From an uncultured Bacteroidota bacterium (GTDB taxonomy: Bacteria > Bacteroidota > Bacteroidia > Bacteroidales > P3): a stretch of DNA of 64,000 bases. The position numbers and the translations under genes are program-made. Positions 43,055-53,541 of the stretch are shown here, one piece after another. Position 1 is the first letter of the stretch. The number at the start of each line of letters is the position of its first letter. Below the pieces are notes generated by a model, which was not told the origin of the DNA, ran no database searches, and saw only the letters and a program-made list of their open reading frames with translations. The stretch covers positions 61,794-125,793 of the forward strand of contig UQXW01000001.1 in assembly GCA_900545215.1 (NCBI GenBank), read 5' to 3'.

Positions 43055-44134
43055 ATGAAACAATTAGAAATACATGGTTACAAATCGATTAAGGATTTGG
43101 TTCTTCCGCTGAGAGAAATCAATATTCTGATTGGCGCAAACGGAAGCGGTAAGAGCAACTTGCTGTCATTCTTTGTATTTTTGAAAACTTTCTATAATAG
43201 AAATCTTCAAGAGTCTGTGGCTTTATCAGGAGGCATGGATAAGTTTTTGTATATGGGGCGTAAGATTACCTCTGAGATAAGTATAAAATTATTATTCCCG
43301 AATAATGCCTATTCTTTTACACTTGTTGCCGGTGAAGACGCTTTTGTGATAACCAAAGAGGGACTATGGTATGAGGCTAATCCGCACATGCCTAATCCTA
43401 TTGATATAGCATCTTTTTCCAAAGAGTCGGGATTACAATATGCCACGGTACCCCGCGCAGATTATATCCGTAATTATTTAAGTGAACTAAAGAAATATCA
43501 CTTTCATGATACGAGTAAGAACTCACCCTTTACAAAGGTGTCAAATGTAAAAACAGGAGGTCATTATTTGCTTCCGCAAGGAGAAAATTTGGCTGCTTTT
43601 CTATACACTGTTAGTCGGCAGACTCCAAAGAATTACAATTTGATTGTTCAGACTATACAAACCGTTGCCCCTTATTTCAGAGATTTTTATTTGAAACCTG
43701 ATGAGAATGGGAATTTGTCATTAAAATGGCAGGATAAATACAGCGAGAACATTTATGGAGCAACCGATTTATCAGATGGAACAATTCGTTTTATTGCCTT
43801 GACAACCTTATTTATGCAACCCCAATTACCGCAGACCATCATTTTGGATGAGCCGGAATTGGGACTTCACCCTGTAGCCATTGCCAAATTGAGCGGCATG
43901 ATAAAATCGGTTGCAGCCAAGGAGTGTCAAATCATTGTAGCAACGCAATCTACCGATTTGATCAGTTACTTTGATGCAGAGGATATTATTACAGTGGATC
44001 AAATTAATGGCGAAAGTATCTATAAGCGACTTTCTTCTGACGAGTTAGAAGATTGGTTGGAAGAATACACGATAGATGAACTGTGGAAACGGAATATGCT
44101 TCATAATGGGCAGCCGAATAATCAAGAGTTATGA
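43055..44134 (+). CDS. AAA_21/ABC-type (OLD/AbiLi/RloA-like) ATPase
   Basis: Walker A GANGSGKSN; signature-like LSDGTIRFIALTTLF; Walker B IILDEPELGLHP; H-loop ATQS. Confidence 0.8.
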   Translation: MKQLEIHGYKSIKDLVLPLREINILIGANGSGKSNLLSFFVFLKTFYNRNLQESVALSGGMDKFLYMGRKITSEISIKLLFPNNAYSFTLVAGEDAFVITKEGLWYEANPHMPNPIDIASFSKESGLQYATVPRADYIRNYLSELKKYHFHDTSKNSPFTKVSNVKTGGHYLLPQGENLAAFLYTVSRQTPKNYNLIVQTIQTVAPYFRDFYLKPDENGNLSLKWQDKYSENIYGATDLSDGTIRFIALTTLFMQPQLPQTIILDEPELGLHPVAIAKLSGMIKSVAAKECQIIVATQSTDLISYFDAEDIITVDQINGESIYKRLSSDELEDWLEEYTIDELWKRNMLHNGQPNNQEL

Positions 44135-44787
44135 GCAGAGTAATTGTTATTTGCGAAGGCGAAACCGAACGAGAATTTTGCCAAACGCTCCTTTTCGGAT
44201 ATTTTGCGAGCATTGGTAAATATATAGAAGCACCATTGATAAAGCGCTCGCATGGCGGAATCGTTCGTTGGGAAATATTGAAAAAGCAAATTGAAACAAC
44301 TCTACGCAAAGAACAAGATGCAATAGTAACACTGCTTATTGATTATTATGGGTTGCATGAAAAGCACTATTTTCCGGGGTGGGACGAAGCTGAAAAAATT
44401 ATAGATAAAATAAAACGTGTATCCTATCTGGAAGATACTATGAGGCAGGATATAGATGATAGTATTCGTTATCGTTTTATTCCTTACTTGCAGTTACATG
44501 AGTTTGAAGCTCTGCTTTTTTGTGATGCGGAGATATTTAAAAATATGATTCCCGAAAAAGAATTGATAGGTCTTCAGGAATTGCAGACCGTGATTGATAG
44601 TAATCCCAATCCCGAGTTAATTAACACAAGGAAAGAAAACACGCCCTCTCATAGATTGTCGCGTATAATAAAAGGTTATAATAAAATCGTTTACGGAAAT
44701 CTGATAGCTGAACGTATTGGTTTGTCAACCATGCGTTCAAAATGTCTTCGATTTAATAATTGGTTGAATGAATTGGAAAAAGCATAA
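44131..44787 (+). CDS. DUF4276/RloB-like protein (TOPRIM-like N-terminal CEGETE motif), partner of the upstream ATPase
   Basis: The start overlaps the ATPase stop (ATGA). N-terminal RVIVICEGETEREF and a later acidic LLIDYYG motif. Length is 218 aa. Confidence 0.65.
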   Translation: MSRVIVICEGETEREFCQTLLFGYFASIGKYIEAPLIKRSHGGIVRWEILKKQIETTLRKEQDAIVTLLIDYYGLHEKHYFPGWDEAEKIIDKIKRVSYLEDTMRQDIDDSIRYRFIPYLQLHEFEALLFCDAEIFKNMIPEKELIGLQELQTVIDSNPNPELINTRKENTPSHRLSRIIKGYNKIVYGNLIAERIGLSTMRSKCLRFNNWLNELEKA

Positions 44788-47906: not shown

Positions 47907-48866
47907 ATGAAGCAAGAAATAAAGATACAACCCATAGGCGGCTATTTTGAATTGGAGTTACCAACGTTTCCGGAGTATCATTCGCAGGCAATAGCACTTA
48001 ATAGCGGACGTTTTTGTTTGGAATATATACTGAGATGTAAGCAGTATAAGAAAATATATATACCGTATTATACCTGCGATTCCGTTTTGGAACCGATAGT
48101 AAAACTCGGTTTACCGTATGAGTTCTACCATATAACAGAAGAATACAAAATATCGGAAACGATTTCTCTTTCAAAAGGTGAAGTATTGTTATACACCAAC
48201 TATTGGAGATTACAGAATGATTACTGCGAGGAATTGGCAAAGCAATACGGAAAGCAGTTGATTTTTGACTGCACACAAGCCTTTTATTCCAAACCGATAA
48301 GAGGGATAGACGCTTTCTACAGTTGTAGAAAATTTTTCGGAGTTCCTGATGGAGGTTATCTTTATACCGATGTCAAGGCGAATTTTGAGATAGAACAAGA
48401 TGAATCATATACCAGAATGGATTCATTGATAAAGCGTATCGACCTTTCACCCGAAGCCGGTTACCAAGACTTTCACAAGGCAAGTGCAATGTTCCATGAT
48501 ATGCCTGTTCGGAAGATGTCCGAATTTACCAAGCGAATGATGCAAAGCATAGACTATGAACAAGCCGCCAAGCAACGTATATCAAATTACAACGCACTGC
48601 AACAAGCCCTTGGTGGCAGAGAATTATGCAGAGGAGAAGTCCCGATGATATTCCCCTACATATCGGAACAAGGGGCAATTCTTCGTAACCATCTGATACA
48701 ACACAAAATCTTTGTAGCCAAATATTGGCAAAACGTATTGGAATGGACAAAAGAAGATGCAGTGGAAACAACAATGGTAAATAATATACTCCCCCTCCCA
48801 ATCGATCAACGATATGGTAAGGAGGATATGGAAAGAATAATAGATTTGATAAAGATATGGAAGTAG
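47907..48866 (+). CDS. divergent DegT-like (aminotransferase-fold) protein, function unknown
   Basis: Weak DegT-family landmarks in the right order: DCTQAF (matching EDaAqA), SCRKFFGVPDGGYLYTD (matching SFHxxKxxxxGEGG), and a C-terminal ILPLPID. The start was chosen at the internal Met. Confidence 0.35.
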   Translation: MKQEIKIQPIGGYFELELPTFPEYHSQAIALNSGRFCLEYILRCKQYKKIYIPYYTCDSVLEPIVKLGLPYEFYHITEEYKISETISLSKGEVLLYTNYWRLQNDYCEELAKQYGKQLIFDCTQAFYSKPIRGIDAFYSCRKFFGVPDGGYLYTDVKANFEIEQDESYTRMDSLIKRIDLSPEAGYQDFHKASAMFHDMPVRKMSEFTKRMMQSIDYEQAAKQRISNYNALQQALGGRELCRGEVPMIFPYISEQGAILRNHLIQHKIFVAKYWQNVLEWTKEDAVETTMVNNILPLPIDQRYGKEDMERIIDLIKIWK

Positions 48867-49345
48867 CAATTAGACCATTGAGAGAAGAAGATGCATATAC
48901 TTCCGTCAAGTGGAGAAATGATCCGGAAGTGTTCAAATTTACGGGCAACACCTACAAAAATGAAATCAAGATTGAGAATGAGTTGGAATGGATTCATAAA
49001 GTGGTTGCCAATTCAAATGATTACCGTTGTGCAATTCTTGCTGATGGCGTTTATGTGGGAAATATTTATTTGACAGACATTGATGGTAAAGCAGCTAATT
49101 ATCATATCTTCATCGGCAACAAAGAATATTGGGGTAAGGGCGTTGCAAAGAAGGCATCGCTTTTGATACTTGATTACGCTTTCAACACCTTGAAACTCGA
49201 AACAGTCAAACTCAAAGTCCGCAAGGAAAACACATCAGCTTTTATGCTCTACAAGAAATTAGGCTTTGAAGTAGAGAACGAAGAAAACGTTTGGATATCG
49301 ATGGAGATAAAAGCATATAAACGGCAGCCTACGTGTATAAGTTGA
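48857..49345 (+). CDS. GNAT-family N-acetyltransferase
   Basis: IFIGNKEYWGKGVAKKASLLILDYAF and YKKLGF motifs. Confidence 0.85.
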   Translation: MEVAIRPLREEDAYTSVKWRNDPEVFKFTGNTYKNEIKIENELEWIHKVVANSNDYRCAILADGVYVGNIYLTDIDGKAANYHIFIGNKEYWGKGVAKKASLLILDYAFNTLKLETVKLKVRKENTSAFMLYKKLGFEVENEENVWISMEIKAYKRQPTCIS

Positions 49346-49526
49346 TATTCAACATCAAGGCAATAGGTGAAACATTGCAAGCAATGCAACAAAACGAGTA
49401 AACCGCCGTTTAATTGAATAGTCAGCATAGATTGAAATCATGGATTTATTACAAGTTATGCATATTTTGAGAGTTCTGTGTTTTAGAGAATTGTTTGCTT
49501 GTGAGTAAAGTAAATTGTAAAGAGCC

Positions 49527-49940
49527 ATGGTAAGCAAGTTGAAGAATAAATCAGAGATATTGTATGATACGGCGAAACTATTGCACGATAAAAGTTTGTA
49601 TGTAGGTGTTGCACATGCTGCTTATTATAGTTGTTATCAGCTGTTGAAACATATTTGGCTTCATTCCATGCTTAAGTCTGAGGAAGAACTCACTAAAAAT
49701 ATCAGCACAGGGAAAATAGGTTCTCATGAATATTTGCTGAATGAAATTGTGAGTTATATAGAAAAATATCCATCTAAAACCGGTGGGAAAGGCGACTATA
49801 GAATAGTGAGGGATAATATGTTACAGTTAAAACGCCTTCGAGTGAAGGCTGACTATAAAGATGATGATTTTTGCTGTAAGGATAGCAACAGTTCTATTAC
49901 ATTGTCGGATAAAATATTGCCGATACTAAGACGTTATTGA
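49527..49940 (+). CDS. HEPN-fold protein (classic PF05168-like helical pattern), putative RNase/toxin
   Basis: An N-terminal helix (LYDTAKLLHDKSLYVGVAHAAYYSCYQLLKHIWL) resembling the HEPN hydrophobic core, and a C-terminal KRLRVKADYKDDD resembling the HEPN R…(R/A)(D/Y) motif. Confidence 0.45.
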   Translation: MVSKLKNKSEILYDTAKLLHDKSLYVGVAHAAYYSCYQLLKHIWLHSMLKSEEELTKNISTGKIGSHEYLLNEIVSYIEKYPSKTGGKGDYRIVRDNMLQLKRLRVKADYKDDDFCCKDSNSSITLSDKILPILRRY

Positions 49941-49943
49941 TGT

Positions 49944-50408
49944 ATGAGAGCAAAAGAGTTTGTTATTGAAGCTTTGAAAGAACTTCTTGGAAAAGTTACT
50001 ACAGTGAAAGTGCGATATGAATTTGATGCAAATGCACTTGTTCATGTTGTGGAAGTTCTGCCCGAAGAGGTGTATTCTTCAAATAAAGAATACCTTGGAT
50101 GGGAAGAACAACTATATCACGACTTTGTGAAACAATTTCCAAGAGAGAATATATGTTTCATTACCGATGATGCACTTGTCGGAATTAAGAATGCCGAGTT
50201 TGAGCAACAAGGAGAGAATTATAGCATTATATGTATTCCTACATATAAATACTGCGAGAATGGCAGACCATGCTCTTTACTTTCGATAGACAGTAGTATT
50301 AGTAATTTTCAGCCGTTGAATTATTGCAATATGGAGAAGAATGGGCAACATGCTTCATTTGACGCAGTGGTATTGCCAACGTGTTCGGATTTATTACAAG
50401 CAGCATAA
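49944..50408 (+). CDS. hypothetical protein (no recognisable domain) between the HEPN and SecB-like genes
   Basis: 154-aa ORF, 4 nt after the HEPN stop and 7 nt before the SecB-like start. Confidence 0.4.
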   Translation: MRAKEFVIEALKELLGKVTTVKVRYEFDANALVHVVEVLPEEVYSSNKEYLGWEEQLYHDFVKQFPRENICFITDDALVGIKNAEFEQQGENYSIICIPTYKYCENGRPCSLLSIDSSISNFQPLNYCNMEKNGQHASFDAVVLPTCSDLLQAA

Positions 50409-50414
50409 AGTATT

Positions 50415-50825
50415 ATGGAAGACAAAACAAAATCGGGATTTGCAATAACAGGATTGATATTGTTGGAAAGCAATTTCAAACGAGAGAATAATGTGCAGTT
50501 CGTTGAAACTGTGCAAAACAATATGCATATAGAGACAGAGGTTCAGACGAAAGATGCTTCCATCATGGTGCTTGAAACAGTAACAATAAGCCAGAAATAT
50601 GAAAAGATGGAACAAGTATCTATCATGGTAAAGATGGCAGGGGTTTTTGAACGTGTCGGAGAAAGCAAATTGGAAGACTTGGAACAGTTCGGAAAGATAA
50701 ATGGAGCTGCCATTATTTTTCCCTATATTAGGGAACATATCACTAATTTATCTCTCAAAGCAGGAATTCCACCCATAATACTTCCACCTGTTAACTTTAC
50801 CAAGATGCAGGGAAATAACCGTTGA
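50415..50825 (+). CDS. SecB-like chaperone
   Basis: Aligns along its length with E. coli SecB, especially GAAIIFPYIREHITNLSLKAGIPPIILPPVNF against [29 protein letters not shown]. Confidence 0.8.
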   Translation: MEDKTKSGFAITGLILLESNFKRENNVQFVETVQNNMHIETEVQTKDASIMVLETVTISQKYEKMEQVSIMVKMAGVFERVGESKLEDLEQFGKINGAAIIFPYIREHITNLSLKAGIPPIILPPVNFTKMQGNNR

Positions 50826-50841
50826 CTACAAAAAATACTGA

Positions 50842-51153
50842 ATGAATATGGGAGCAAGTTATAATAACATTATTGAAAGAATAGATGAACACCTAAAAAA
50901 TAGTGGACGAAGATACTATTCGGATTTTTACATCGGGATAACAAACGACCCTGAGCGTAGGCTTTTCGATGAACATAACGTTAAGAAAGATTATATGTGG
51001 TGGATTTATTCCAAAGCTGATAATATTGAAATCGCAAGAAAGGTTGAGAAACACTATTTGGATAAAGGAATGCGAGGTGGAGACGGAGGTGGAGATGATA
51101 CATCAGTGTATGTATATTGTTATACCGTATCTCCAACAACGATAGAGTATTGA
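50842..51153 (+). CDS. small GIY-YIG nuclease-domain protein
   Basis: RRYYSDFYIGITNDPERRLFDEHN (YIG-T-…R-…H-N) and the downstream WWIY…ARKVEKHYLDKG (catalytic Glu and Lys). Confidence 0.55.
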   Translation: MNMGASYNNIIERIDEHLKNSGRRYYSDFYIGITNDPERRLFDEHNVKKDYMWWIYSKADNIEIARKVEKHYLDKGMRGGDGGGDDTSVYVYCYTVSPTTIEY

Positions 51154-51154
51154 C

Positions 51155-51883
51155 ATGGATAAGGATAATTTGTTGACTAGAGCTTCAGAAGTAGCTCTAA
51201 CAGGTGAAAATAGTGAAATATCTCAAGATGATAATGAGACAAGAGAACGGTTTGTTGTTTTCTTGGATATTATGGGGTTTAAGGATATCGTGAGAAGTAA
51301 TCCGAAACATGATGAATTAAAAAAGCGTTTAGGAGAATTAAATGACAGTATAAACGAACTCATTAAAGAAGAAGAGGCTACCTCAATAATAGAGCTTGTT
51401 CAGTTTTCTGATAGTATCATTCTTTTCACAAAGAACAATACAAATGAACAACTTGTGAAATTAGTATCTATCGTTTGTTTGATTATGCAGGAAGCTATTG
51501 AACTTAAATTTGCAATGAAAGGAGCAATAGCAAAGGGTGTACTCACTTGTGATTCTAACAAGAAAGTTTATTTCGGACAAGCACAGATAGATGCCTATCT
51601 TCTTGAAGAAAATGTATGGTATTACGGTATAGTCGTTCACCATTCTGCACAGAATGATGTGGAAAAAATAAATAAGAATTATATTTCTACCTTAGAACTT
51701 CCCATGAAGACTGGGTGGATTAAACATTGCGAGTTATCTTGGTATGCTTATAGTAGCGATAAGGCTAATGATATAAAAGAGCGTATTTCAAATATAAGAT
51801 ACACCGTTTCCGATGCACCTCGAAGATACATAGACAATACCGAAGCTGTGATGAAAGCCTTTGAGGAAAAGAATGGTAGGTAG
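51155..51883 (+). CDS. class-III nucleotidyl-cyclase-like (CHD/GGDEF palm-fold) protein with degenerate catalytic residues
   Basis: FVVFLDIMGFKD (cf. FADIVGFT, metal Asp 1); FSDSIILF (cf. iGDaYM, Asp 2); KGAIAKGVLTCDS (cf. RiGIHtGpvvaG); YFGQAQIDAYLLE (cf. GdtVNlAsRmE, with N replaced by D and R by L). Confidence 0.5.
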   Translation: MDKDNLLTRASEVALTGENSEISQDDNETRERFVVFLDIMGFKDIVRSNPKHDELKKRLGELNDSINELIKEEEATSIIELVQFSDSIILFTKNNTNEQLVKLVSIVCLIMQEAIELKFAMKGAIAKGVLTCDSNKKVYFGQAQIDAYLLEENVWYYGIVVHHSAQNDVEKINKNYISTLELPMKTGWIKHCELSWYAYSSDKANDIKERISNIRYTVSDAPRRYIDNTEAVMKAFEEKNGR

Positions 51884-52002
51884 AGCAAAAGAAAAATAAG
51901 AATAAAAGCAAGAAACACTTGGCGTAAACAGAGTGCAGTTAATTCAAACCATTAACAAGTAGCGAGTAAAGTCTTTTCTCGTTTTCATACATAAACATTA
52001 AG

Positions 52003-53541
52003 ATGCAGAAAAAAAATGGTGATACTATAAATAAAAAGAAGATAGCTATTAATACAATTATTGTCTATGTTAGACTTTTTATAACTACAATAATAGGGCT
52101 TATATCTACACGGCTTGTTTTAAGAATATTGGGTGTTGCTGATTATGGTCTGTACAATGTTGTAGGTGGTATCATTGTTGTCTTGAATGTGTTTTGTGTG
52201 GCTATGCATACAACCACTAGACGTTTCATAAATGTTGAAATGGGCAAGTTGGACGGAAATGTCAATAAGGTATTCAATATATGCATGAAGTTACATATAC
52301 GAATTGCTGTAATCTTTTTTTTGTTGGCAGAACTGATAGGACTTTTGTATATATATAATTATCTGAATGTAGAGGAATGTAGACTTTCTGATTGCGTGTT
52401 TATATATAATATTTCTTTAATCACTTCTTGTTTAGGATTGATTAATGTTCCTTATCAAAGTACACTTGTTGCTCGTGAGCGATTTATTGATATTGCTCTT
52501 ATAGATATAATTACAAAAATAATTCTATTCGGAATGATAATCCTACTCTATATTCGTGGAGGGTATGCATTACGTCTTTATGCAATATCAATGTGTGTTT
52601 CTGTTCTCTTGTCGTTGATATTGTATACTCTTGGTTGTTATAGGAGATATTCTTCGGATGTATGCTTGAAAAGATATGTAGATAAAGATTTGACAAAAGA
52701 AATGCTAAGATTTAACGCTTACACAACAATTGGAGCATCTTCATATATGATAAGAGCACAGGGAGCGAATATTATAATCAATTTATTCTTTAATACTATT
52801 GTGAATGGAGCCTATGCAATAGCATATCAAATCGAAAGCTATTTAATTTTATTTATTAGTAATCTAACAACAGCTTCTGCTCCTCAAATTACAAAGAGTT
52901 ATGCTAATGGGGATATTGATGCGTCAATGAATTTGGTAATGCGAATGAATAGATTGTGTATACTAGTAATGATGTTTATTTGCTTTGCGGCTATTGTAGA
53001 ATTGCCTTTTTTGTTGAAATTATGGTTGGGAGTAGTTCCAGAATATGCAGTATTATTCGTCTCTTTGACGATAATTAGTGCATTTATTCGCTCTTTGGGA
53101 GAAGGTATTCCCCCATTGGTACAAGCGTCAGGAAGGATAAAGTGGTTTCAGATTTTTGGCTCTATATTTACTTTCTTAGATATACCATTTGTAATTATAT
53201 TCTTTGTTTTGGGATTTCCTCCACAAACTATGATAATCGTGTTTTGTGTTTCTTCTATTTGTGGACGTATAGTTAATATCTATTTGTTGTATCGGATATT
53301 GAAGTATGATGTATTATTGTTTTTGCGAGTATCCTATTTTCCAATTATTAAAATTCTCCCATTTTTAGTAGCGTACTATGTTTTGTATTCACGATTTGAA
53401 CTTACAACAAATTTATCTCATGTTATTGGCTTATTGAGTTCTGTTATTCTTGCTGGAATTATAATCTTTTTCTTGGGCTTTGATGAGAAAGAACGTCTTT
53501 CTATATTCAATACACTTAAAACAAAATTAAAAACAAGATAA
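52003..53541 (+). CDS. second Wzx-type oligosaccharide flippase (MOP superfamily)
   Basis: 512 aa with ~14 TM segments and an N-terminal ININTIIVYVRLFITTIIGLISTRLVLRILG typical of Wzx proteins. An A8 tract directly follows the ATG. Confidence 0.75.
   Translation: MQKKNGDTINKKKIAINTIIVYVRLFITTIIGLISTRLVLRILGVADYGLYNVVGGIIVVLNVFCVAMHTTTRRFINVEMGKLDGNVNKVFNICMKLHIRIAVIFFLLAELIGLLYIYNYLNVEECRLSDCVFIYNISLITSCLGLINVPYQSTLVARERFIDIALIDIITKIILFGMIILLYIRGGYALRLYAISMCVSVLLSLILYTLGCYRRYSSDVCLKRYVDKDLTKEMLRFNAYTTIGASSYMIRAQGANIIINLFFNTIVNGAYAIAYQIESYLILFISNLTTASAPQITKSYANGDIDASMNLVMRMNRLCILVMMFICFAAIVELPFLLKLWLGVVPEYAVLFVSLTIISAFIRSLGEGIPPLVQASGRIKWFQIFGSIFTFLDIPFVIIFFVLGFPPQTMIIVFCVSSICGRIVNIYLLYRILKYDVLLFLRVSYFPIIKILPFLVAYYVLYSRFELTTNLSHVIGLLSSVILAGIIIFFLGFDEKERLSIFNTLKTKLKTR

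What the first reader, a model, noticed from the sequence alone, without database searches (positions are those of the whole stretch)
50842..51883. GIY-YIG mini-nuclease directly coupled (1-nt gap) to a class-III cyclase-like palm domain with degenerate active site
51155-51883 carries the linear motif order of adenylyl/guanylyl-cyclase and GGDEF palm domains: FLDIMGFKD, then FSDSIILF, then KGAIAKGVL, then YFGQAQIDAYLLE. The transition-state Asn and Arg of classical cyclases are replaced by D and L, and there is no GGDEF tetrad. The gene abuts a 103-aa GIY-YIG nuclease. Minimal cyclase (mCHD) genes coupled to nucleases are the logic of nucleotide-second-messenger defence systems such as Pycsar and CBASS. 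This pairing, and this degenerate cyclase, do not match the described families.
Basis: partly seen in the sequence, partly recalled or inferred. Interest (0 to 1): 0.7.

Follow-up and report, generated by a model that had tools for sequence, protein, structure and literature searches.

The report
Cyclase-fold enzyme with small GIY-YIG-like partner
Two tightly coupled genes inside a Bacteroidales capsule operon encode an uncharacterised enzyme with the adenylyl/guanylyl-cyclase fold and a 100-residue nuclease-like partner; the pair moves between genomes as a unit and looks like a new, untested conflict or defence cassette.

Summary
Genes at 50842-51153 (103 aa) and 51155-51883 (242 aa) are separated by one base.

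**The 242-aa protein.** It has a class III nucleotidyl-cyclase fold: the AF2 model has pLDDT 89 and all top-50 Foldseek PDB hits are adenylyl or guanylyl cyclases. It matches no Pfam, NCBIfam or PADLOC model. It belongs to a large unnamed family. Both metal-binding Asp (D38, D86) are invariant across that family. The canonical Asn/Arg and base-specifying residues are missing. The site is therefore non-canonical rather than dead.

**The 103-aa protein.** It carries only the YIG-strand-plus-helix signature of GIY-YIG. Its confident model matches no solved GIY-YIG structure.

**Co-occurrence.**
- The pair is found in more than 25 unrelated neighbourhoods in Bacteroidales and Akkermansia.
- In other phyla the cyclase-like gene occurs alone.
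- In 28 of 80 metagenome loci, the same small protein sits upstream of a DUF1883 + AbTIR-type TIR protein instead.

**Reading.** This is a mobile two-gene conflict cassette in which the enzyme slot can be a cyclase-fold or a TIR protein. It is not Pycsar, CBASS or Thoeris. A signal-plus-nuclease mechanism is plausible (about 0.3), and a toxin/regulator reading is nearly as likely. Nothing here tests function.

The parts
50842..51153 (+). Gene for the 103-aa small partner, a GIY-YIG-derived protein
   Evidence: ORF. Pfam GIY-YIG scores 28.5 bits over residues 29-49 only, and 34/38 relatives hit the same model. The AF2 model has pLDDT 91.7. At least 557 related 90%-identity clusters exist, all about 100 aa and unnamed.
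50920..50988 (+). YIG strand plus helix motif (SDFYIGITNDPERRLFDEHNVKK, residues 27-49). It contains Y30, R40 and H45.
   Evidence: This is the only stretch that hhalign aligns to the solved UPF0213 GIY-YIG proteins 1zg2 and 1ywl (probability 56-65%). Y30, G32 and H45 are invariant and R40 is at least 90% conserved.
51067..51093 (+). Glycine-rich loop GMRGGDGGG (residues 76-84)
   Evidence: G76, M77 and G79 are invariant whatever the downstream partner. Residue 78 is mostly R next to cyclase-like genes and K/Q next to TIR genes. This difference is confounded by phylogeny.
51109..51126 (+). C-terminal strand YVYCYT (residues 90-95), with invariant Y92
   Evidence: It is a strand in the AF2 model. 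Moving it in front of residue 27 extends the hhalign match onto the GIY strand (probability 83%). This is a weak hint of circular permutation.
51155..51883 (+). Gene for the 242-aa class III cyclase-fold protein. Residues 1-28 are disordered, about 29-195 form the cyclase-homology core, and 201-239 form two family-specific helices.
   Evidence: The family has 407 50%-identity clusters at E<1e-30 and 1556 at E<1e-10.
51260..51286 (+). FLDIMGFKD at the end of strand 1, carrying the first metal-binding Asp, D38 (51266-51268)
   Evidence: It aligns to the F-x-D-I-x-G-F-T motif of Ma1120/Rv1625c cyclases. D38 is invariant in 129 representatives.
51404..51427 (+). FSDSIILF hairpin carrying the second metal-binding Asp, D86 (51410-51412)
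   Evidence: It lies at the turn between model strands 79-83 and 87-92. S85 and D86 are invariant. The D38-D86 spacing is 48 residues, against 44 in the Pycsar cyclases EaPycC and AnPycC (PMC11224242).
51518..51544 (+). KGAIAKGVL strand. K122 is at the position of the conserved Arg of the cyclase 'R-[VI]-G' strand.
   Evidence: HMM alignment to 4p2m. K122 and G123 are at least 90% conserved, and a distant relative has R at this position.
51569..51607 (+). YFGQAQIDAYLLE, strand 5 plus helix 4. This is where canonical cyclases carry the transition-state Asn and Arg.
   Evidence: It is helix 142-151 in the model. G141 is invariant and I145, D146, A147 and L150 are at least 90% conserved. No Asn or Arg is present. 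This half alone finds no cyclase by sequence, so the register is inferred.
51797..51841 (+). Family-specific C-terminal motif RYTVSDAPRRYIDNT (residues 215-229)
   Evidence: S219, R223, Y225, D227, N228 and T229 are at least 90% conserved across the whole family. The motif is absent from canonical cyclases. Its role is unknown.

Best explanation
**What it is (confidence about 0.65).** The two genes form a self-contained, horizontally mobile, two-gene conflict cassette, either anti-phage/abortive-infection or toxin-antitoxin-like. It has been inserted co-directionally into a Bacteroidales capsular-polysaccharide operon.

**Shown.**
- The 242-aa protein has the class III nucleotidyl-cyclase fold.
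- It keeps both metal-binding aspartates and the phosphate-side residues.
- It lacks the canonical Asn/Arg and base-specifying residues.
- It is the founding member, in this window, of a large unnamed family.
- The 103-aa partner keeps a GIY-YIG-type Tyr/Arg/His/Glu set.
- The same partner is found, tightly coupled, upstream of either this cyclase-fold protein or a DUF1883 + AbTIR-type TIR protein.

**Inferred mechanism (confidence about 0.3-0.35; this is the figure given in the confidence field).** The cyclase-fold protein works as a head-to-tail dimer. It uses two-metal chemistry on an NTP to make a nucleotide product that is not necessarily a 3',5'-cNMP, either on a trigger or constitutively. 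It occupies the same functional slot as a cyclic-ADP-ribose-forming TIR enzyme. The small GIY-YIG-derived protein is the nucleic-acid-cleaving output that this product, or the enzyme itself, controls.
For: **Fold and homology:**

**Catalytic core kept.**
- D38, S85, D86 and G141 are invariant, and K122, G123 and D146 are at least 90% conserved, in 129 representatives at 27-48% identity.
- dN/dS is 0.18-0.22.
- The tandem-fused relative P0203 keeps the Asp pair in copy 1. Copy 2 has lost both (FLELITF, FAKY) but keeps KGAI...FGQ..VDSY. This is the asymmetric pattern of class III pseudo-heterodimers.

**Cassette behaviour.**
- The small gene lies immediately upstream in 31 of 60 genome loci. That covers every one of these loci in which the cyclase-like gene scores E<=1e-70 against the family profile (Bacteroidales, plus Akkermansia and one unclassified MAG), and in some the cyclase-like gene is fragmented.
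- Where the start codon is unambiguous the spacing runs from a 4-nt overlap to 19 nt (window 1 nt, L015 1 nt, L026 and L028 2 nt, L007 an overlap of 4 nt, L001 19 nt).
- It is the only recurrent neighbour across loci.
- It lies in more than 25 different neighbourhoods.

**Slot equivalence.**
- Of 80 metagenome loci seeded with the small protein, 40 have the cyclase-like gene and 28 have a DUF1883+TIR gene 2-5 nt downstream.
- That TIR is AbTIR/TcpB-type (E 7e-54 to PDB 7uwg/8g83). It also hits PADLOC PDC-S66 (1e-73) and ThsB (5e-44).
- The small protein's conserved residues (Y26, Y30, R40, H45, E69, G76-M77-x-G79, Y92) are the same with either partner.

**Conflict context.**
- The window operon also carries HEC-01 (43055-44787; 4e-133 and 1e-75).
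- It also carries a SecB-like/PD-T4-9_C trio (49527-50825).
- Distant relatives lie next to Old/GajA-like, SIR2/PDC-S25 and HsdR genes. One is fused to a GmrSD_N/DUF262 domain.
Against: - No functional data exist, and neither protein hits any PADLOC model.
- The 100-aa partner has no recognisable ligand-binding domain.
- The same partner family would have to respond to chemically different products from a cyclase-fold and a TIR enzyme.
- The small gene comes first, which is more typical of antitoxin-toxin operons than of cyclase-effector operons.
- The cyclase-like gene is a solo gene in Flavobacteriia, Chitinophagia, Dehalococcoidia, Nitrospirota and others, so it does not need this partner.
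- The canonical transition-state residues are absent, so cyclase chemistry is not assured.
- Defence-neighbourhood association was not tested statistically.
Confidence: 0.33

Rival explanations
1. Toxin/effector plus neutralising or regulatory partner. The cyclase-fold protein, like the AbTIR-type NADase in sister cassettes, is itself the growth-arresting effector, acting by NTP depletion or a toxic nucleotide. The small upstream protein holds it in check or autoregulates the operon. It would be a promiscuous partner, comparable to the Panacea/PanA antitoxin domain (own knowledge).
For: - The small gene comes first, with a 1-nt gap or a 4-nt overlap.
- The cassette is mobile and lies in toxin-antitoxin-rich neighbourhoods: PIN, RelE/Gp49-like and Fic genes in L019, L023, L037 and L041.
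- One partner family is kept while the downstream enzyme is swapped.
- Solo cyclase-like genes and PDC-S66-type single-gene TIRs show that the enzymes can stand alone.
- AbTIR-type TIRs are NAD-consuming enzymes (names).
Against: - The small protein's invariant residues are a GIY-YIG-like catalytic set. They do not change with the partner. A binding-type antitoxin would be expected to co-vary with unrelated toxins.
- Solo cyclase-like genes in many phyla argue that the enzyme is not constitutively toxic.
Confidence: 0.25
2. Selfish nuclease plus cargo. The small GIY-YIG-derived protein is a minimal free-standing homing-type endonuclease. It promotes spread of whatever gene lies downstream, and the cyclase-fold and TIR genes are interchangeable cargo.
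For: - The small gene is constant while the downstream gene varies: cyclase-like, TIR, a 213-aa unknown, an AAA ATPase.
- There are many insertion contexts without any integrase or transposase.
- GIY-YIG is a classic homing-endonuclease fold (own knowledge; see also 10.1101/2024.10.26.620412).
Against: - A 100-aa protein has no DNA-recognition domain.
- No target-site repeats flank the pair, apart from one imperfect 17-nt match.
- Tight translational coupling and co-divergence of the two genes point to a joint function.
- No copies were found on viral contigs.
Confidence: 0.1
3. Pseudo-enzyme. The cyclase-fold protein no longer catalyses anything and serves as a nucleotide-binding sensor or scaffold.
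For: The canonical Asn, Arg and base-specifying Lys/Asp are missing. The C-terminal half is not recognisable as a cyclase by sequence.
Against: Both metal-binding Asp and the phosphate-side residues are invariant across phyla. They are lost together in only one copy of a tandem fusion. That pattern is hard to explain without catalysis.
Confidence: 0.08
4. Capsule-related housekeeping or regulatory genes of the polysaccharide locus.
For: About a third of the pair-bearing loci lie in polysaccharide-biosynthesis clusters (window, L007, L015, L016, L031, L039, L048, L070, L072). The genes are co-directional with the operon. No own promoter or terminator stands out above chance.
Against: The other loci have unrelated neighbours. 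The same block sits between different capsule gene sets. Relatives occur in phyla and contexts without capsule genes.
Confidence: 0.05

Closest known systems
Class III adenylyl/guanylyl cyclases (cyclase homology domain, PF00211; e.g. CyaC, Rv1625c, Ma1120, sGC)
   Same: - Same fold: all top-50 Foldseek hits are from this class.
- Same F-x-D-I-x-G-F motif and hairpin Asp, at similar spacing.
- A basic residue on strand 4.
- A tandem-fusion variant degenerates asymmetrically, as pseudo-heterodimers do.
   Different: - It falls below the Pfam threshold.
- It has no transition-state Asn/Arg and no Lys/Asp or Glu/Cys base-specifying pair.
- It has family-specific invariant residues D146, H162/H163 (majority) and the C-terminal motif VS-x-PR-x-Y-x-DNT on two extra helices.
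- It has no sensory domain.
Pycsar (PycC pyrimidine cyclase plus cNMP-activated TM or TIR effector)
   Same: It is a two-gene cassette with a class III-fold enzyme that keeps the two metal-binding Asp (PMC11224242).
   Different: - There is no PADLOC Pycsar hit.
- The partner has no cyclic-nucleotide-binding domain and is a 100-aa GIY-YIG-like protein.
- The gene order is reversed.
- The enzyme occurs alone in many phyla.
Thoeris (ThsB TIR signal generator plus ThsA effector) and AbTIR/TcpB-type TIR enzymes
   Same: Sister cassettes pair the same small protein with a TIR. That TIR hits the ThsB models and AbTIR. TIR and cyclase-fold proteins are therefore interchangeable in this cassette.
   Different: There is no ThsA (SIR2/SLOG or Macro). 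The window cassette has no TIR at all.
UPF0213/YhbQ-type stand-alone GIY-YIG proteins (PDB 1zg2, 1ywl)
   Same: - About 100 aa.
- Same Y-[IT]-G-x-T-x-D-x-[ED]-R-R-x(3)-H motif.
- A downstream helix with a conserved Glu.
   Different: - Only about 22 residues align.
- An N-terminal helix replaces the GIY strand.
- There is an extra Gly-rich loop and a C-terminal strand.
Panoptes / mCpol minimal palm-domain signalling systems (PMC12657230, title and abstract only; details from own knowledge)
   Same: A minimal stand-alone palm-type nucleotide enzyme sits in a two-gene defence cassette. Inhibitory or constitutive signalling is a possible logic.
   Different: mCpol is Cas10/GGDEF-like, whereas this protein is class III-like by fold ranking. 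The partner there is a membrane effector, not a nuclease-like protein.

Membership tests
Class III nucleotidyl cyclase (CHD, PF00211) | Cyclase-homology alpha/beta palm fold | tested here: met
   The AF2 model has pLDDT 89.4. All top-50 Foldseek PDB hits are class III adenylyl/guanylyl cyclases, with E from 8.6e-7.
Class III nucleotidyl cyclase (CHD, PF00211) | Sequence membership (Pfam gathering score) | tested here: not met
   The window protein gives no Pfam hit at E<=1. 17/77 relatives give sub-threshold hits, the best at E 0.015. The profile against PDB sequences gives E 7e-4 over the N-terminal half only.
Class III nucleotidyl cyclase (CHD, PF00211) | Two metal-binding Asp (end of strand 1 and the strand 2-3 hairpin) | tested here: met
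   D38 and D86 are invariant in 129 representatives. D38 aligns to the cyclase Asp. D86 lies at the hairpin turn of the model. The sequence alignment is off by two at D86, so its equivalence is structural inference.
Class III nucleotidyl cyclase (CHD, PF00211) | Transition-state Asn and Arg on helix 4 | tested here: not met
   Helix 142-151 reads QAQIDAYLLE and has no Asn or Arg in any register. The exact register is inferred.
Class III nucleotidyl cyclase (CHD, PF00211) | Base-specifying pair (Lys/Asp for ATP, Glu/Cys for GTP) | tested here: not met
   The position four residues before D86 is V (A in the consensus). The position before F140-G141 is hydrophobic. The register is inferred.
Class III nucleotidyl cyclase (CHD, PF00211) | Head-to-tail dimer with the active site at the interface; NTP cyclisation | not testable with these tools
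   There is only indirect support. The tandem-fused relative P0203 lost the Asp pair in one copy only.
Pycsar | PycC-type cyclase recognised by Pycsar models | tested here: not met
   There is no PADLOC hit at E<=1.
Pycsar | Effector with a cyclic-nucleotide-binding domain fused to TM or TIR | tested here: not met
   The partner is a 103-aa single-domain protein with only a GIY-YIG motif hit.
CBASS | CD-NTase (Pol-beta-type nucleotidyltransferase) enzyme | tested here: not met
   The fold is class III cyclase, not CD-NTase. There is no PADLOC hit.
GGDEF diguanylate cyclase / Cas10-mCpol palm | GG[DE]EF or GGDD hairpin and family-model match | tested here: not met
   The hairpin is F-S-D-S. No GGDEF-family Pfam hit occurs in 77 members. 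No GGDEF or Cas10 chain is among the top-50 Foldseek hits.
GIY-YIG nuclease superfamily (PF01541) | Pfam gathering score | tested here: met
   The score is 28.5 bits against a cutoff of 22.6, but the match covers profile positions 15-34 of 78 only. 34/38 relatives match.
GIY-YIG nuclease superfamily (PF01541) | Catalytic set: GIY Tyr, YIG Tyr, Arg, His/Tyr, Glu | tested here: inconclusive
   Y30, R40, H45 and E69 are conserved at GIY-YIG-like spacing. There is no N-terminal GIY strand. Candidates for that Tyr are Y26, or Y92 on the C-terminal strand. A permuted alignment raises the hhalign probability from 65% to 83%.
GIY-YIG nuclease superfamily (PF01541) | GIY-YIG alpha/beta fold | tested here: not met
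Thoeris | ThsB TIR together with a ThsA effector | tested here: not met
   The window has no TIR. Sister cassettes have a ThsB-like TIR but no ThsA in the loci read.
Type II toxin-antitoxin module | Toxicity of one product, neutralised by direct binding of the other | not testable with these tools
   Only the operon layout and mobility are compatible.

The most novel reading that the evidence does not exclude
A new class of nucleotide-second-messenger immunity. Its output is a 100-residue, possibly circularly permuted GIY-YIG nuclease, which would be the smallest signal-controlled effector known. It would be driven interchangeably by a non-canonical class III cyclase-fold enzyme or by an AbTIR-type ADP-ribosyl cyclase. 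In human-gut Bacteroidales it would be expressed phase-variably from capsule operons.
Probability: 0.18. Interest if true: 0.85.

Novelty: new variant of a known kind. Interest (0 to 1): 0.6.

Why it matters
If it is active, this family adds an unnamed and widespread branch to the class III cyclase superfamily. It has at least 400 50%-identity clusters at E<1e-30 across Bacteroidota, Chloroflexota, Verrucomicrobiota and others. It keeps the metal site but has replaced the substrate and transition-state half, so its product is likely to be something other than cAMP or cGMP.

The partner swap with AbTIR-type TIR proteins is a natural experiment. It indicates that the two enzyme types fill one functional slot, and it gives a direct handle on what the small nuclease-like protein reads or controls.

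The cassettes sit in phase-variable capsule operons of abundant human-gut Bacteroidales, next to other defence candidates. This bears on how capsule switching and phage resistance are linked.

Tried and rejected
**Family and sequence searches that found nothing useful**
- PADLOC, NCBIfam and Pfam gave nothing for the 242-aa protein.
- PHROGs gave only an unannotated family, phrog_23933 at 4e-17.
- A single-sequence search of the PDB gave only noise.
- A profile of the C-terminal half (A6) against PDB sequences found no cyclase, so the helix-4 register could not be fixed by sequence.
- The IMG/VR viral contig scan found no relatives.
- The phage GenBank collection gave one distant, unverified high-GC record.

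**Candidate partners or fusions that did not help**
- On a Methylobacter plasmid the 136-aa gene upstream of a distant relative is not related to the small protein.
- The extra regions of the fused relatives P0259, P0304 and P0328 have no Pfam domains.
- The 213-aa alternative partner has no PDB, Pfam or PADLOC match.

**Local sequence features**
- Rfam found no RNA family in 48500-52500.
- The promoter/terminator scan was not above shuffled expectation, and it does not cover Bacteroides promoters.
- The composition profile shows no island signature.
- The repeat search found no convincing flanking repeats.

**Literature**
- Searches for GIY-YIG + cyclase, DUF1883, class III cyclase + defence, and Bacteroides capsule + defence found no description of this pair or family. 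The library is incomplete.

**Considered and rejected**
- Thg1-like 3'-5' polymerase and GGDEF/Cas10 palm domains. Neither appears among the top-50 fold hits or the sequence hits.
Full report
**1. The observation.**

The window has ORF 50842-51153 (+, 103 aa) ending in TGA at 51151-51153. One base later, ATG at 51155 opens ORF 51155-51883 (+, 242 aa). Both genes run in the same direction as a long capsular-polysaccharide operon:
- Upstream lie nucleotide-sugar genes, a flippase, ATP-grasp genes and acetyltransferases.
- Downstream lie a second flippase, glycosyltransferases and a polymerase.

**2. The 242-aa protein is a class III cyclase-fold protein of an unnamed family.**

It has no hit in Pfam, NCBIfam or PADLOC. 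A word-indexed search found 330 relatives, all unnamed. A full profile search found 407 50%-identity clusters at E<1e-30 and 1556 at E<1e-10.

The evidence for the fold is as follows:
- A 77-sequence profile has class III adenylate cyclases (Ma1120, Rv1625c/Cya) as its seven best PDB sequence matches. E is 7e-4 to 7e-3. The match covers strand 1 to strand 4.
- The AF2 model is confident (pLDDT 89.4, pTM 0.84).
- All 50 best Foldseek PDB matches are class III adenylyl or guanylyl cyclases. There is no GGDEF, Cas10, Thg1 or polymerase chain among them.
- Seventeen of 77 members give sub-threshold PF00211 hits and none hits GGDEF.

The C-terminal half alone finds no cyclase by sequence. Sequence-level homology therefore rests on the metal-binding half. 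The rest is supported by fold only.

**3. The active site is non-canonical rather than dead.**

Across 129 representatives at 27-48% identity, D38, S85, D86 and G141 are invariant. R32, I39, G41, F42, K43, K122, G123, D146, A147 and L150 are at least 90% conserved. So is a C-terminal motif made of S219, R223, Y225, D227, N228 and T229.
- D38 aligns with the first metal-binding Asp of the cyclases.
- D86 sits at the strand 2-3 hairpin turn of the model, where the second one lies.
- The spacing between them is 48 residues, against 44 in the Pycsar cyclases (PMC11224242).
- K122 aligns with the conserved Arg of the 'R-V-G' strand.

Helix 4 (QAQIDAYLLE) has no Asn or Arg in any register, and the base-specifying positions are hydrophobic.

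A tandem-fused relative, P0203, keeps the Asp pair in copy 1. Copy 2 has lost both (FLELITF, FAKY) but retains KGAI...FGQ..VDSY. Pseudo-heterodimeric class III cyclases show the same asymmetric decay. This indicates a head-to-tail dimer in which the two halves of the site come from different protomers.

dN/dS is 0.18-0.22.

My reading is that this is a working two-metal NTP-utilising enzyme with an unknown product. That is inference.

**4. The 103-aa protein is GIY-YIG-derived, but the assignment is partial.**

Pfam GIY-YIG is passed (28.5 against 22.6 bits), yet only residues 29-49 match. Thirty-four of 38 relatives match in the same way.

Moving the C-terminal strand (invariant Y92) in front of residue 27 extends the alignment onto the GIY strand, raising probability to 83%. 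This is a weak hint of circular permutation, and I chose the junction myself.

The conserved residues are Y26, Y30, G32, R40, F42, H45, E69, G76-M77-x-G79, Y92, C93 and Y94. E69 is K in a few sequences.

**5. The pair is a unit, but each gene also has a life of its own.**

Sixty genome loci were seeded with the cyclase-like protein. The small gene is immediately upstream in 31 of them. These are all the loci whose cyclase-like gene scores E<=1e-70 against the family profile, from Bacteroidaceae, Prevotellaceae, Muribaculaceae, Porphyromonadaceae and Alistipes. Two Akkermansia loci and one unclassified MAG also have it. Where the start codon is unambiguous, the spacing runs from a 4-nt overlap to 19 nt.

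The small gene is the only neighbour that recurs across loci. The flanks differ in more than 25 loci. About a third are polysaccharide clusters.

In the more distant members the cyclase-like gene is solo. These come from Flavobacterium, Polaribacter, Ferruginibacter, Draconibacterium, Dehalococcoidia, Nitrospirota, Paceibacterota and a Thermoplasmata archaeon.

Eighty metagenome loci were seeded with the small protein. Their downstream genes were:

| Downstream gene | Loci |
|---|---|
| Cyclase-like gene | 40 |
| 252-259-aa DUF1883 + TIR gene, 2-5 nt downstream | 28 |
| 213-aa unknown | 3 |
| 158-aa membrane protein, 300 nt away | 3 |
| Other genes, including an AAA ATPase | 3 |
| Nothing, or too little sequence downstream | 3 |

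The TIR is AbTIR/TcpB-type (E 7e-54 to PDB 7uwg and 8g83). It hits PADLOC PDC-S66 at 1e-73 and ThsB at 5e-44.

On a neighbour-joining tree of the small proteins, those next to TIR genes form one clade nested within the diversity of those next to cyclase-like genes. The cyclase-like partner therefore looks ancestral and the TIR a replacement. The small protein's conserved residues do not change with the partner.

**6. Context.**
- The window operon also contains a PADLOC HEC-01 pair at 43055-44787 (4e-133 and 1e-75).
- Directly upstream of the pair lies a trio at 49527-50825: a weak HEPN-like gene, a 154-aa gene and a SecB-like gene. The last hits PD-T4-9_C at 4e-17.
- The trio plus the pair recur between different capsule gene sets while the SecB-like protein stays 100% identical.
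- Distant family members lie beside Old/GajA-like ATPases, a SIR2/PDC-S25 protein, HsdR, PIN and Fic genes. One on a Bacillus plasmid is fused to a GmrSD_N/DUF262 domain.
- No member was found on IMG/VR contigs.
- This association with conflict genes is suggestive but was not tested statistically.

**7. Mechanism.**

What is shown:
- a mobile two-gene cassette;
- a cyclase-fold enzyme with an intact metal site;
- a nuclease-like partner shared with a cyclic-ADP-ribose-forming type of TIR.

What is inferred is the direction of control. I rank the readings as follows:
- **Signal or enzyme-controlled nuclease, about 0.3-0.35.**
  - In its favour, both alternative enzymes belong to families whose hallmark products are cyclic nucleotides used in immunity. 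The small protein also keeps a partner-independent catalytic-type core.
  - Against it, the partner has no ligand-binding domain. Two different products would have to be read by one family. The gene order is small-gene-first. Solo enzymes exist.
- **Toxin/effector plus neutralising or regulatory partner, about 0.25.**
- **Selfish nuclease with cargo, about 0.1.**
- **Pseudo-enzyme, about 0.08.**
- **Capsule-related function, about 0.05.**

**8. Comparison with known systems, and novelty.**

The enzyme works like, and folds like, a class III cyclase. It fails the sequence threshold and two of the defining catalytic features.

The cassette is not Pycsar, because no model matches and there is no cNMP-binding effector. 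It is not CBASS, because the fold is wrong. It is not Thoeris, because there is no ThsA. The small protein is at best a remodelled GIY-YIG.

Literature searches found no description of the family or of the pairing. The library is incomplete, so prior description cannot be excluded.

I rate it a new variant of a known kind: a nucleotide-enzyme-based two-gene conflict cassette built from a new cyclase-fold family and a new small partner. Interest is 0.6. The bioinformatic case is solid and the partner swap is a useful lead, but there is no functional evidence.

Noticed in passing
window 43055-44787 (+): An AAA ATPase (359 aa) and a 218-aa protein overlap by 4 nt. They match the PADLOC candidate defence pair HEC-01A/HEC-01B (4e-133 and 1e-75). 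They are embedded in the same capsule operon.
   Followed up: partly
window 49527-50825 (+): Three tightly packed genes lie directly upstream of the pair. The first is 137 aa with a weak HEPN hit (E 0.23). The second is 154 aa with no hit. The third is a 136-aa SecB-like protein (Pfam 9e-13; PADLOC PD-T4-9_C 4e-17). The layout resembles a toxin-antitoxin-chaperone trio.
   Followed up: partly
L159-L166 (loci around the SecB-like protein P0359): The trio-plus-pair block sits between different capsule gene sets. Upstream are ATP-grasp/acetyltransferase or epimerase/hexapeptide genes. Downstream are flippase or GT2/EpsG genes. The SecB-like protein stays 100% identical throughout. The cyclase-like gene is far more diverged than its neighbour (dS 0.94 vs 0.25, window vs L011).
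   Followed up: partly
L159 4434-6485: Here the small gene is followed, after 233 nt, by an AAA_21/AAA_15 ATPase (334 aa) and a 171-aa gene instead of the cyclase-like gene.
   Followed up: no
L117, L123-L125, L127-L133, L136, L138, L139, L142, L144-L156 (e.g. L147 4001-5079): These are sister cassettes. The same small protein lies 2-5 nt upstream of a DUF1883 + TIR protein (Pfam 8e-32 and 7e-21). The TIR is close to AbTIR/TcpB (E 7e-54) and to PADLOC PDC-S66 and ThsB.
   Followed up: yes
protein P0203 (527 aa): This is a tandem duplication of the cyclase-like domain. Copy 1 keeps both metal-binding Asp and the C-terminal motif. Copy 2 has lost both Asp but keeps the KGAI and FGQ..VDSY elements.
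   Followed up: partly
L075 4515-5831 (Bacillus wiedmannii plasmid NZ_CP036072.1): This 438-aa protein is annotated as DUF262. It has a weak GmrSD_N match at residues 37-183, and its C-terminal part is a distant relative of the cyclase-like protein (tblastn E 2e-6).
   Followed up: partly
protein P0178 (125 aa): This is a small protein whose C-terminus continues into RNIRQTVSDAPRKYIDNTLTVIG. That is the C-terminal motif of the cyclase-like protein. It is apparently a deletion that removed most of the downstream gene, or an assembly artefact.
   Followed up: no
L007-L010 and L021 (P0039 and P0044, 288-289 aa): In the most divergent pair-bearing clade the cyclase-like protein has an extra C-terminal segment of about 45 aa. 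It is recorded as PF27070 HTH_Rpn_C. The small partner is 136 aa and has K in place of E69. Rpn-type genes also neighbour the pair in L023 and L072.
   Followed up: no
L051-L054, L063 (Dehalococcoidia): In these genomes the solo cyclase-like gene keeps a conserved position near radA-like and clpC-like genes. This differs from the variable contexts elsewhere.
   Followed up: no
window 50802-50818 and 52000-52016: An imperfect 17-nt direct repeat (AAGATGCAGGGAAATAA / AAGATGCAGAAAAAAAA, 82% identity) brackets the pair. It overlaps the end of the SecB-like gene and the start of the flippase gene. It is probably chance.
   Followed up: no
L001-L006 4819-5397 and 6882-7619: In a common human-gut context the pair is flanked by an unannotated 192-aa gene and a DUF6946 gene. 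An LHH polymorphic-toxin gene lies nearby.
   Followed up: no
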